Shown here: positions 51,301 to 54,300 of the stretch, one piece after another
Layout: each line of letters begins with the position of its first letter
Position numbering within the stretch: the first letter of the stretch is position 1
NCBI RefSeq assembly: GCF_030384885.1
Contig: NZ_CP128613.1
From: Escherichia coli
GTDB taxonomy: Bacteria; Pseudomonadota; Gammaproteobacteria; Enterobacterales; Enterobacteriaceae
Strand: one strand, 5' to 3'
Length of the DNA: 64,000 nucleotides
Position numbers: made by a program

Positions 51301-54300
51301 TGCCTTCCCCGAGCCAGGTAAAATTTCGAAAGATGGTTATCGGGTCTGGTTAACATCGCATAACGATTTAGGCATTATCCGTTACATGGTCGCCATAGGA
51401 ACGGCACATTATGTCGTCATGATCGACCCCGCTTCCTTTATTGATGTCATTCCCTATAGCTCATGGCAAATTGATGCCGCCATTATTGGCAATGCCCATA
51501 ATGTTGTCATAACCAGCAGCGATGAAATTGCTCAGGGAATTATTACCAGGCTACAAAAAACACCCGGTGAGCATATCGAAAATAATGGAATTATTTACGA
51601 TATCCAGCCCTTCCCGGAGATGAATATTTCGATCATCACCTGGGCTTCAACGAAAATGTTGCAGAAAGGCTGGCATCGGCAAGTCTTTATTTGGTTACCG
51701 CTCGGGTTGGTGATTGGCCTGCTGGCAGCGATGTTTGTGCTGCGTATTTTGCGCCGTATCCAGTCACCGCATCATCGGCTGCAGGATGCTATCGAAAATC
51801 GTGATATTTGCGTGCACTATCAGCCGATTGTCTCCTTAGCCAATGGCAAAATTGTCGGTGCTGAGGCACTGGCGCGCTGGCCGCAGACAGACGGTAGTTG
51901 GTTGTCACCAGATAGTTTTATTCCGCTGGCACAGCAAACGGGGCTTTCTGAGCCGTTGACGCTACTGATTATAAAAAGTGTCTTTGAAGATATGGGCGAC
52001 TGGCTGCGTCAGCATCCGCAGCAGCATATTTCGATCAATCTTGAATCCACCGTGCTCACCTCGGAAAAAATCCCGCAATTGCTGCGTGAAATGATCAATC
52101 ACTATCAGGTTAATCCCAGACAGATCGCGCTTGAACTCACTGAACGCGAGTTTGCCGATCCGAAAACCAGCGCCCCGATAATTTCTCGCTACCGGGAGGC
52201 GGGCCATGAAATTTATCTCGATGATTTTGGTACGGGGTATTCAAGTTTAAGCTATTTACAGGATCTGGATGTCGACATTCTGAAGATCGATAAATCTTTC
52301 GTTGATGCGCTGGAATATAAAAATGTCACGCCACATATCATCGAAATGGCAAAAACACTGAAACTGAAAATGGTAGCGGAGGGAATCGAAACCAGTAAAC
52401 AAGAAGAGTGGCTACGCCAGCATGGCGTGCACTACGGCCAGGGCTGGCTCTACAGCAAGGCATTACCGAAAGAGGATTTCTTACGCTGGGCCGAGCAACA
52501 TTTGTGAATTTTTGGGCTGACGGCACGCCGCACAGCCCGTCACGCTACCTATTCGTCGATGATTGACTCGAATCCGCCATAGATCATTCGCTTGCCATCA
52601 AACGGCATGGACTCGCCGAACTCCTTCATCCGTGGGTCCGACATCATCTTTTGATTAGCAGCGTCGCGGACCTCTTTTGAAGGGTATTCAATCCAGCTAA
52701 AGACAACCTCTTCATTCTCTTCCGCTTTCACCGCCATACGAAAATCGGTCACTTTGCCATCCGGTACATCGCTGGCCCAGCATTCGACAATACGAAGCGC
52801 GCCAAACTCTTTAAACAATGGCGCGGCCTTAGCGGCCATTTCCCGATAGGCATCCTTTTTATCGGCAGGAACGGCAACCACAAAACCATCAACATACTTC
52901 ATCAGACATACCTCCGAAGCGTACTGCGCAGCCAGACAATTCTTGCGACGTCAGTTGTGGTTAAAGTTTAGCCATGTTGGGATTTTTTGACGAAACGGTG
53001 GGAGGCAGAAATGGGTGGGGGCCCTGCCAGCTACATCCCGGCACACGCGTCATCTGCCTTGGCTGCTTCCTTCCGGACCTGACCTGGTAAACAGAGTAGC
53101 GTTGCGGGAGAACCAACAGAGCCCCCATTGAGAGCGTTGAGAACCAACGCGCAGGCGCATTATCACTGCTGCCCCTGCTAATTGCAACCCATTGCGTGCC
53201 AGATGCTGGTTTCTTGCGCAATGCGGCTTCACTCGGGCGTTTTTCCAGATTATGCTGAAAAATTACCTCAGGAAGAAAAGATGGAAAAAGAAGATTCATT
53301 TCCCCAACGCGTCTGGCAAATCGTAGCCGCTATTCCCGAAGGCTATGTCACCACTTACGGTGATGTGGCGAAACTGGCGGGATCGCCCCGCGCCGCGCGC
53401 CAGGTGGGTGGTGTGTTAAAGCGTCTCCCGGAAGGCAGCACCTTGCCCTGGCATCGGGTGGTTAATCGCCACGGCACCATTTCGCTAACCGGACCGGATT
53501 TACAGCGTCAGCGACAGGCATTACTGGCAGAAGGTGTGATGGTGTCAGGAAGAGGGCAAATCGACTTGCAGCGTTATCGCTGGAACTACTAACCCTCTCC
53601 GGGCGGAGAGGGTTAACTTCGCTTAATATTGCGTAGGAGCCGGAACTGCCGAAGACGGATTCACCTGGGTTGGTGAAGTTGATGGTACGGTAGTCGTTGC
53701 GCCACCGCTGGCCTGAACCGGCACGGCGGTTTGCTGCACCGGCACCAATGTCAGGTCAGCTTTAGTTCCGCCCTGGTTGATCACCGGCTGAACGGTATCG
53801 GTAATAAATACCAGTTTGTCATTCACGGTAATCGCCGCACTCAACAGAATACGCGCGTTCGGCTGAACATCTGCCGGGTTAAATGGCAGAACAAAGCTGA
53901 ATGGTGACTGTTTGCCTTCGGTACGCACCGCTTTCTGCGCCAGTACTTTTGACGGTGCATCGGCTAACGACGCGTCAGAAAGTGTCACGGTCAGCACGGC
54001 ATCAGGCGGCAGTGCAACTTTCTGACGGATCCAGACGGTACCGGAAACATTCGGTTGCTGGATAGCAGGTTGCTGTGTTGCTGAAATAGACGTATTTGCA
54101 GCCGGTGCTGGCGTCTGAATATCCGCGCTTTTATCTGCGCAAGCCGCCAACGCAATCGCAACCGCTAAACCACTGGCCATGTGCACGAGTTTCATTTACT
54201 TCTCCTTATTATCAATGCACCAGCGGGCTAACTTTCCTCGCCGGAAGAGTGGTTAACAAAATAGTAACGTCAACAAGTGTGGCACACATCACGCATTTCT

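What the first reader, a model, noticed from the sequence alone, without database searches (positions are those of the whole stretch)
53013..53126. 4.5S RNA gene ffs hidden under two spurious minus-strand ORFs
The 114-nt SRP RNA sequence is intact. The track ORFs 52961-53299 and 53050-53232 overlap it and should not be called as genes.
Basis: partly seen in the sequence, partly recalled or inferred. Interest (0 to 1): 0.2.

Follow-up and report, generated by a model that had tools for sequence, protein, structure and literature searches.

The report
E. coli 4.5S RNA gene ffs
This is the ordinary, intact gene for 4.5S RNA (the RNA part of the bacterial signal recognition particle), identical to the E. 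coli K-12 copy, and the two reading frames lying over it are chance ORFs, not genes.

Summary
The finding is confirmed and is ordinary. Window 53013-53126, read on the minus strand, is 114/114 identical to the curated E. coli K-12 ffs gene. It scores 68.1 bits against Rfam RF00169 Bacteria_small_SRP, whose gathering score is 40, E = 5.5e-13. It sits in the K-12 gene order ybaZ-ffs-ybaA-pdeB. It is single-copy in 5,424 of 5,426 complete E. coli genomes, and ffs was the only feature annotated under the match in the 40 records sampled across the ranking. The long hairpin is supported by covariation in 21 proteobacterial SRP RNAs.

A sigma-70-like promoter, TTGCAA-17-GATAAT at 53187-53159, would start transcription about 26 nt upstream of the mature 5' end. 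That matches published RNA-seq 5' ends, and RNase P removes this leader.

Both ORFs exist at the stated coordinates but fail every coding test. They have no Pfam match and non-coding codon usage, and they are not conserved outside Escherichia. Sequence identity falls to 31-40% over the 3' tail of the 112-aa ORF just past the RNA. A few deposited annotations do call them 'hypothetical protein'.

One clarification to the finding: ffs itself is on the minus strand, the same strand as the ORFs.

The parts
53013..53126 (-). Mature 4.5S RNA (ffs), 114 nt; the RNA subunit of the bacterial signal recognition particle
   Evidence: 114/114 identical to curated K-12 ffs b0455. Rfam RF00169 covers 53022-53118 at 68.1 bits against a gathering score of 40. 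Single long hairpin, -57 kcal/mol, z = -3.15. Covariation: 82.8% of cells paired against 35-50% when partners are slid.
53061..53084 (-). Universally conserved SRP RNA core (RNA nt 43-66, GGUCAGGUCCGGAAGGAAGCAGCC). It includes the GGAA tetraloop (RNA nt 53-56 = window 53071-53074) and flanking internal loops. This is the Ffh M-domain binding region.
   Evidence: The exact 24-mer was found in at least 120 genome contigs spanning Proteobacteria, Actinomycetota, Bacillota, Chloroflexota and Planctomycetota. Tetraloop position comes from the MFE structure. The assignment as Ffh-binding site rests on established knowledge of SRP RNA domain IV and was not tested here.
53127..53152 (-). 5' leader of the primary transcript (about 22-26 nt), removed by RNase P
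   Evidence: [quoted passage not shown] PMC5499578 reports E. coli RNA-seq 5' ends mainly at -26, an earlier report of a 22-nt leader, and processing by RNase P; see also PMC7049720. The leader is identical to K-12 and mostly conserved across the four enterobacterial genera compared. It forms a small hairpin of its own in the precursor fold.
53159..53187 (-). ffs promoter: -35 TTGCAA (53187-53182), 17-nt spacer, -10 GATAAT (53164-53159), followed by a GC-rich discriminator GCGCCT (53158-53153)
   Evidence: It was the only sigma-70-like site in 52850-53350; 0.2 are expected from shuffles. TTGCA and GATAATGCGCC are conserved in Citrobacter, Enterobacter and Superficieibacter while the surrounding sequence diverges. 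Function is inferred from position and conservation.
53009..53012 (-). Conserved AUUU immediately 3' of the mature end; probable end of the primary transcript. The 4.5S hairpin followed by a U-rich stretch would act as its own terminator, with a few extra nucleotides trimmed afterwards.
   Evidence: The last stretch conserved in all five aligned sequences ends here (ACCCATTT); identity over +115 to +166 is 31-40%. The consensus scan found no separate canonical terminator downstream of ffs. This step is inference.
52961..53299 (-). Spurious 112-aa ORF (ATG start) covering all of ffs, its leader and its promoter, and running 19 nt antisense into the ybaZ coding sequence
   Evidence: Listed. No Pfam family. 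Codon score -0.17, below the 5th percentile (+0.11) of genuine in-frame pieces. Start and stop shift between genera, and the frame is broken in Superficieibacter, Vibrio and P. asuensis. Tail identity is 31-40%, and the upstream part carries 1- and 4-nt indels. Its start, at -173, lies upstream of all reported ffs 5' ends at -26, -127 and -153. It was deposited as hypothetical protein ECS88_0452, in a cluster of only 9 members.
53050..53232 (-). Spurious 60-aa ORF (GTG start) in another frame, overlapping the first 77 nt of ffs
   Evidence: Listed. No Pfam family. Codon score -0.20. No ORF of at least 20 aa in this frame in Enterobacter, Citrobacter or Superficieibacter. It was deposited once as hypothetical protein EFER_2561, in a cluster of 2 members.
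53281..53592 (+). Divergent neighbour ybaZ/atl (MGMT-family DNA base-flipping protein); context gene
   Evidence: Pfam PF01035 DNA_binding_1, E = 2e-27. Annotated upstream of ffs, on the opposite strand, in K-12 and in strain 2013C-4282.
52549..52902 (-). Downstream neighbour ybaA (DUF1428); context gene
   Evidence: Pfam PF07237 DUF1428, E = 2.3e-48. Annotated immediately downstream of ffs in both reference records.

Best explanation
Window 53013-53126 (minus strand) is the chromosomal ffs gene of Escherichia coli, which encodes 4.5S RNA, the small bacterial signal recognition particle (SRP) RNA. A sigma-70 promoter (TTGCAA-17-GATAAT, 53187-53159) starts transcription about 26 nt upstream of the mature 5' end. 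RNase P removes that leader. The transcript most likely ends just after the hairpin, at the conserved AUUU, and is trimmed to the ...CACCC 3' end. The mature RNA is one long hairpin. Its conserved apical region (GGAA tetraloop plus internal loops) binds the Ffh protein to form the SRP, which delivers ribosomes making membrane proteins to the FtsY receptor. The two minus-strand ORFs over it (112 aa and 60 aa) are chance open frames, and the longer one is kept free of stop codons only because the RNA sequence beneath it is conserved. Shown here: identity, family membership, structure covariation, gene order, promoter conservation, and the non-coding character of the ORFs. Taken from literature or established knowledge: RNase P processing, Ffh/FtsY function. 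Inferred: the termination point.
For: Rfam RF00169 hit at 68.1 bits against a gathering score of 40, E = 5.5e-13, full-length model, minus strand only. 114/114 identity to curated K-12 ffs and 377/380 across the flanks. Same gene order as K-12: tesB-ybaY-ybaZ-ffs-ybaA-pdeB. One copy in 5,424 of 5,426 complete E. coli genomes, at least 99% identical in 5,420, and annotated as ffs with no other feature in all 40 sampled records. Strand-specific stable fold, z = -3.15 against +0.24. Covariation across 21 gamma/beta-proteobacterial homologues: 10 of 23 RNAalifold pairs are compensatory; for the E. coli structure, 82.8% of cells are paired against 35-50% slid, covariation score 0.416 against 0.12-0.18, and 0 of 500 shuffles reach it. 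Close relatives show clean compensatory pairs (Citrobacter G27A with C to U; Enterobacter U to C with A to G). The promoter is the only sigma-70-like site in the region, it places +1 at -26, and it is conserved across genera, matching the RNA-seq 5' ends in PMC5499578. ORFs: no Pfam match, negative codon scores while the neighbours score +0.20 to +0.27, not conserved across genera, flanks diverged with frame-breaking indels, and tiny database clusters of 9 and 2 members despite the DNA being in more than 5,400 genomes.
Against: Nothing found argues against it. Limits: expression, RNase P cleavage and Ffh binding were not and cannot be measured with these tools for this particular genome; they rest on identity to the experimentally studied K-12 sequence. 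The consensus scan found no canonical terminator downstream of ffs, so the 3'-end mechanism is inferred. The 112-aa frame is open in Escherichia, Citrobacter and Enterobacter, which on its face resembles conservation, but it is explained by the RNA constraint. pdeB was part of the codon-model training set, so its positive score is not independent.
Confidence: 0.99

Rival explanations
1. The 112-aa ORF (52961-53299, minus strand) is a real protein-coding gene that overlaps ffs on the same strand.
For: The frame is open over the whole of ffs in the window, in K-12, in Citrobacter (117 aa) and in Enterobacter (119 aa). It has been deposited as a hypothetical protein in E. coli S88, P12b, O25b:H4 and Shigella dysenteriae.
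Against: No Pfam family. Codon score -0.17, below the 5th percentile of real in-frame pieces. Outside the ffs-encoded stretch the 'protein' is not conserved: start positions are -173, -206 and -212, ends are +166 and +148, and the N- and C-terminal sequences are unrelated. The frame is cut to 59 aa in Superficieibacter and has internal stops in Vibrio and P. asuensis. DNA identity over its tail is 31-40%, and the upstream part has 1- and 4-nt indels. Substitutions inside ffs are RNA-compensatory and non-synonymous in this frame (Y to H, R to G). Its start codon is antisense inside ybaZ and upstream of every reported 5' end. Curated K-12 annotation, the PGAP record examined and the 40 sampled records omit it.
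Confidence: 0.007
2. The 60-aa ORF (53050-53232, minus strand, GTG start) is a real small-protein gene.
For: It is present in the window and in K-12 and was deposited once as EFER_2561 in E. fergusonii. Minor transcripts with 5' ends at -127 and -153 (PMC5499578) would include its start at -106.
Against: No ORF of at least 20 aa in this frame in any of the three other Enterobacteriaceae genera. No Pfam family. Codon score -0.20. Two of the three window/K-12 nucleotide differences change its amino acids (P to S, N to D). It spans the ffs promoter and leader. Its database cluster has only 2 members.
Confidence: 0.003
3. The sequence is a non-functional or secondary copy of ffs (a pseudogene or a horizontally acquired duplicate) rather than the working gene.
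For: None specific. One search shows 2 plasmid-borne places among 5,424, so extra-chromosomal copies of this sequence do exist in the collection.
Against: It is 100% identical to the K-12 gene, with the promoter hexamers and leader unchanged (one spacer base differs from K-12). It sits at the canonical position between ybaZ and ybaA. There is exactly one place per genome across E. coli. It is the only SRP RNA hit in the 64-kb window.
Confidence: 0.002

Closest known systems
E. coli K-12 MG1655 ffs (b0455), signal recognition particle 4.5S RNA, NC_000913.3 476448-476561
   Same: 114/114 nt identical. The leader and the 110-nt downstream spacer are also identical, and the neighbours are the same (ybaZ upstream and divergent, ybaA downstream).
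   Different: Only 3 substitutions in the 380 bp compared, all upstream of the -10 hexamer; one lies in the promoter spacer (window A, K-12 C). The window is in the reverse orientation relative to K-12 coordinates.
Rfam RF00169 Bacteria_small_SRP (clan CL00003, SRP RNAs)
   Same: Full-length match to the model (1-97 of 97) at 68.1 bits, above the gathering score of 40. The GGAA tetraloop and conserved helix-8 core are present.
   Different: The Rfam model, and therefore the PGAP annotation (97 nt), trims the outer stem.
Large bacterial SRP RNA (e.g. Bacillus subtilis scRNA, about 270 nt) and eukaryotic/archaeal 7S RNA
   Same: They share the helix-8 / domain IV core that binds Ffh/SRP54. The identical 24-mer was found in Bacillota and Actinomycetota contigs. 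That these are large-type RNAs is from my own knowledge and was not tested.
   Different: 4.5S RNA lacks the Alu domain and is a single hairpin. This is established knowledge; the single hairpin itself is seen.

Membership tests
Bacterial small SRP RNA (4.5S RNA; Rfam RF00169) | Covariance-model score at or above the curated gathering threshold, on one strand | tested here: met
   68.1 bits against a gathering score of 40, E = 5.5e-13, model 1-97 of 97, minus strand only.
Bacterial small SRP RNA (4.5S RNA; Rfam RF00169) | Conserved helix-8 / domain IV core with a GNRA tetraloop (GGAA) flanked by internal loops | tested here: met
   GGUCAGGUCCGGAAGGAAGCAGCC at RNA nt 43-66, with the GGAA loop at nt 53-56 in the MFE fold. 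The same exact 24-mer was found in at least 120 contigs from several phyla.
Bacterial small SRP RNA (4.5S RNA; Rfam RF00169) | Single extended hairpin supported by compensatory base changes in homologues | tested here: met
   10 of 23 consensus pairs have double-sided changes. For the E. coli structure, 82.8% of cells are paired against 35-50% slid, covariation score 0.416 against 0.12-0.18, 0 of 500 shuffles. The six pairs inside the search pattern are invariant by construction and are uninformative.
Bacterial small SRP RNA (4.5S RNA; Rfam RF00169) | Orthology to the experimentally characterised E. coli ffs (sequence identity and conserved gene order) | tested here: met
   114/114 identity. 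Gene order ybaY-ybaZ-ffs-ybaA-pdeB as in K-12.
Bacterial small SRP RNA (4.5S RNA; Rfam RF00169) | Own promoter and a 5' leader processed by RNase P | tested here: inconclusive
   A promoter-like site at the right distance, conserved across genera, agrees with published 5' ends at -26 and with RNase P cleavage in E. coli (PMC5499578; PMC7049720). Actual transcription and cleavage cannot be measured with these tools.
Bacterial small SRP RNA (4.5S RNA; Rfam RF00169) | Binds Ffh and supports co-translational targeting; essential for growth | not testable with these tools
   Rests on identity to the K-12 RNA, for which this is established. Presence in 5,424 of 5,426 genomes as a single copy is consistent with an essential gene.
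Protein-coding gene (the two overlapping ORFs) | Product belongs to a protein family or has independent homologues | tested here: not met
   No Pfam family at E up to 1 for either ORF. The only database relatives are the same ORF called over the same DNA, in clusters of 9 and 2.
Protein-coding gene (the two overlapping ORFs) | Reading frame, start and stop conserved in related genera | tested here: not met
   The 60-aa ORF is absent in 3 of 3 other Enterobacteriaceae. The 112-aa frame has shifted ends, unrelated termini, and breaks in Superficieibacter, Vibrio and P. asuensis. There are frame-breaking indels and 31-40% identity in the ORF-only segments.
Protein-coding gene (the two overlapping ORFs) | Codon usage like that of the genome's genes | tested here: not met
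   Scores of -0.17 and -0.20 log2 LR per codon, against +0.20 to +0.27 for ybaA, ybaZ and ybaY, and a 5th percentile of +0.09/+0.11 for in-frame pieces of the same length.

The most novel reading that the evidence does not exclude
The most novel reading not strictly excluded is that the frame spanning ffs, which is open in Escherichia, Citrobacter and Enterobacter, is occasionally translated from rare read-through or upstream-initiated transcripts. That would make ffs a dual-function RNA/protein locus. Every computational test run here argues against it: codon usage, cross-genus conservation of the ORF ends, indels, and the start codon lying upstream of all reported 5' ends.
Probability: 0.007. 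Interest if true: 0.5.

Novelty: already known. Interest (0 to 1): 0.03.

Why it matters
It matters only for annotation quality. ffs is among the best-characterised bacterial non-coding RNA genes. The practical point is that ORF-based gene tracks should be masked with RNA-family hits. The same two ORFs were deposited as 'hypothetical proteins' in a few deposited genome annotations (ECS88_0452, EFER_2561) and have spread into UniRef and NCBI nr. No new biology is implied.

Tried and rejected
(1) The terminator-like site reported at 53135-53121 on the minus strand lies in the leader and the first bases of the mature RNA, upstream of nearly the whole gene. One site was found where 0.5 are expected from shuffles, so I rejected it as a chance match. 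No canonical terminator was found downstream of ffs, so the 3' end is assigned by inference to the conserved AUUU after the hairpin.

(2) The plus strand was considered as the source of the RNA and rejected. It has no Rfam hit and its fold is no better than shuffles, z = +0.24.

(3) In alignment A2 the fixed-length extracts from betaproteobacteria overrun their shorter SRP RNAs. Many 'not paired' cells in the outermost stem are therefore extraction and alignment artefacts, and the 82.8% paired figure is conservative.

(4) The off-frame control contains stop codons, so it is too harsh a negative control for ORFs. The comparison I used is with in-frame pieces of real genes and with the neighbouring genes.

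(5) Script one search failed on a file path and was rerun. That step is marked as inference and my own knowledge.

(6) I did not run the large protein-homology searches for the ORFs. The exact cluster look-up, Pfam and the cross-genus comparison already answer the question.

Full report
**Observation**

The window's minus strand at 53013-53126 reads GGGGGCUCUG...GGGCCCCCACCC, 114 nt. Rfam RF00169 (Bacteria_small_SRP) matches 53022-53118 on the minus strand over the whole model (1-97 of 97), at 68.1 bits against a gathering score of 40, E = 5.5e-13. It is the only SRP hit in the 64-kb window. The minus strand folds into one long hairpin of -57 kcal/mol (z = -3.15 against dinucleotide shuffles), whereas the plus strand folds no better than its shuffles (z = +0.24). 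The two ORFs named in the finding are at exactly the stated coordinates: 52961-53299 (-) of 112 aa with an ATG start, and 53050-53232 (-) of 60 aa with a GTG start. One clarification: ffs lies on the minus strand, the same strand as the ORFs, which occupy two different frames relative to it.

**Identity and context**

A 380-bp stretch around the feature matches 5,424 of 5,426 complete E. coli genomes and is annotated 'ffs: signal recognition particle sRNA small type'. Against curated K-12 MG1655, where ffs is b0455 at 476448-476561, the window is identical at all 114 positions of the RNA, at the upstream leader and over the whole 110-nt spacer down to ybaA. Only 3 of the 380 positions differ, and all three lie upstream of the -10 hexamer.

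The neighbours are those of K-12:
- ybaA, DUF1428, 52549-52902 (-), Pfam E = 2.3e-48.
- ybaZ/atl, an MGMT-family protein, ending at 53592 (+), PF01035 E = 2e-27.
- ybaY, tesB and pdeB further out.

With the 114-nt RNA alone as query there is exactly one place per genome, at least 99% identical in 5,420 of 5,424. In all 40 records sampled evenly down the ranking, ffs is the only annotated feature under the match.

**Structure evidence from relatives**

From these I extracted 107 distinct SRP-RNA-length sequences. Close relatives already show classic compensatory changes: Citrobacter has G27 to A together with C to U on the partner, and Enterobacter has U to C together with A to G.

On 21 gamma- and beta-proteobacterial sequences, RNAalifold recovers the inner hairpin, and 10 of its 23 pairs keep pairing through changes on both sides. 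I then counted the full E. coli MFE structure on the same alignment:

| Measure | Observed | Partners slid 1-3 columns | Shuffles reaching it |
|---|---|---|---|
| Cells forming a standard pair | 82.8% | 35-50% | 0 of 500 |
| Covariation score | 0.416 | 0.12-0.18 | 0 of 500 |

The six pairs inside the search pattern are invariant by construction and carry no weight. The outermost stem is under-counted because the betaproteobacterial RNAs are shorter than the fixed extract.

**How it works**

*Transcription start and leader.* The only sigma-70-like site in 52850-53350 is TTGCAA-17-GATAAT at 53187-53159 on the minus strand, where 0.2 sites are expected from shuffles. [quoted passage not shown] PMC5499578 reports that E. 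coli RNA-seq 5' ends of pre-4.5S RNA lie mainly at -26, with minor ends near -127 and -153 and an older report of a 22-nt leader. [quoted passage not shown] PMC7049720 also lists 4.5S RNA as an RNase P substrate.

*Extent of the conserved unit.* A five-way alignment of the window, K-12, Citrobacter, Enterobacter and Superficieibacter shows a block of conservation. It begins at the -35 element and runs through GATAATGCGCC, the leader and the RNA, and its last fully conserved stretch is ACCCATTT ending at +118. Identity with the three other genera is 77-89% over the promoter and leader and 97-98% over ffs. Over +115 to +166 it is 31-40%.

*Termination and function.* I infer that the hairpin followed by AUUU serves as the transcript's own terminator and that a few extra 3' nucleotides are trimmed; this step is not shown. 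The function of the mature RNA is established knowledge and was not tested here: the apical GGAA-tetraloop region binds Ffh to form the SRP, which works with FtsY in co-translational membrane targeting.

**The ORFs**

- **No protein family:** neither ORF matches a Pfam family at E up to 1.
- **Codon usage:** a codon log-likelihood model trained on the window's own 21 ORFs of at least 300 aa gives -0.17 for the 112-aa ORF and -0.20 for the 60-aa ORF. ybaA scores +0.27, ybaZ +0.20 and ybaY +0.24, and the 5th percentile of in-frame pieces of the same length is about +0.1.
- **60-aa frame across genera:** it has no ORF of at least 20 aa in Enterobacter, Citrobacter or Superficieibacter.
- **112-aa frame across genera:** it is open across ffs in Citrobacter and Enterobacter, but with different starts (-206 and -212 against -173), a different stop (+148 against +166) and unrelated terminal sequences. 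It shrinks to 59 aa in Superficieibacter and has internal stops in Vibrio and Pseudomonas asuensis.
- **ORF-only DNA:** these segments carry 1-nt and 4-nt indels and fall to 31-40% identity.
- **Position:** the 112-aa ORF contains the ffs promoter and leader. Its ATG lies 19 nt inside ybaZ on the antisense strand, and at -173 it is upstream of all reported 5' ends.

The openness of that frame is best explained as a by-product of the constrained RNA sequence.

An exact-sequence look-up shows that both ORFs have been deposited. The 112-aa product is CAR01799.1 (ECS88_0452, E. coli S88) plus a few others, in a cluster of 9 members. The 60-aa product is CAQ90056.1 (EFER_2561, E. fergusonii), in a cluster of 2 members. 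Such small clusters for DNA present in more than 5,400 genomes are what one expects from sporadic over-calling. Curated K-12 annotation, the PGAP record examined in full and the sampled records do not call them.

**Comparison with what is known, and verdict**

This is the K-12 ffs gene, unchanged, in its normal place. It meets every testable defining feature of RF00169. Transcription and RNase P processing are supported only indirectly, and Ffh binding rests on identity to the studied molecule. Novelty: already known. Interest is very low, apart from the reminder that RNA-family hits should mask ORF tracks.

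Noticed in passing
window 53203-53283 (+), 5' end of ybaZ/atl: Annotations disagree on the ybaZ start. K-12 gives 129 aa (start = window 53203) and PGAP gives 103 aa (ATG 53281, preceded by AGGAAG at 53270-53275). 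In the cross-genus alignment, codon-periodic conservation stops at the 53281 ATG. The 26-codon K-12 extension region has 1-, 4- and 6-nt indels in Enterobacter and Superficieibacter and a neutral codon score (+0.007). The short start therefore looks like the real one. The long form would begin only 16 bp from the ffs -35 hexamer.
   Followed up: partly
window 36153-36217 (-): DnaX programmed ribosomal frameshifting element (Rfam RF00382), 94.6 bits against a gathering score of 35. This is expected inside dnaX and fits the E. coli K-12-like gene order of the window.
   Followed up: no
window 19552-19635 (-) and 18542-18619 (both strands): sroB sRNA (RF00368, 82.1 bits), and a naRNA4/CssrE hit (RF02564) that scores on both strands (84.6 and 62.3 bits), as expected for a palindromic REP/BIME-type repeat rather than a strand-specific gene.
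   Followed up: no
public protein databases (cluster 1; P0004, P0006, P0007): The cluster of the ffs-overlapping 112-aa ORF includes partial 'hypothetical proteins' attributed to Staphylococcus aureus (551-nt contig) and Klebsiella pneumoniae (373-nt contig). The S. aureus entry at least is probably a contaminating enterobacterial contig. A 51-aa Escherichia albertii member carries the UniRef name 'Transposase', which appears to be a naming error.
   Followed up: no
E. coli genome collection, hits to window 53013-53126 and 52903-53282: Two of the 5,424 ffs matches are on records classed as plasmids, and two of 5,426 complete genomes show no match at all. With the 380-bp query, 64 genomes have less than 80% coverage and some have two places, which suggests occasional insertions or rearrangements in the ffs flanks.
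   Followed up: no
L081, L008, L015 downstream of ffs (alignment columns ~385-600): In Citrobacter werkmanii, Enterobacter sp. Bisph1 and Superficieibacter electus, the sequence downstream of ffs does not align with the E. coli ffs-ybaA spacer or with ybaA. The downstream neighbour of ffs therefore appears to differ between genera, while the upstream ybaZ side is shared.
   Followed up: no
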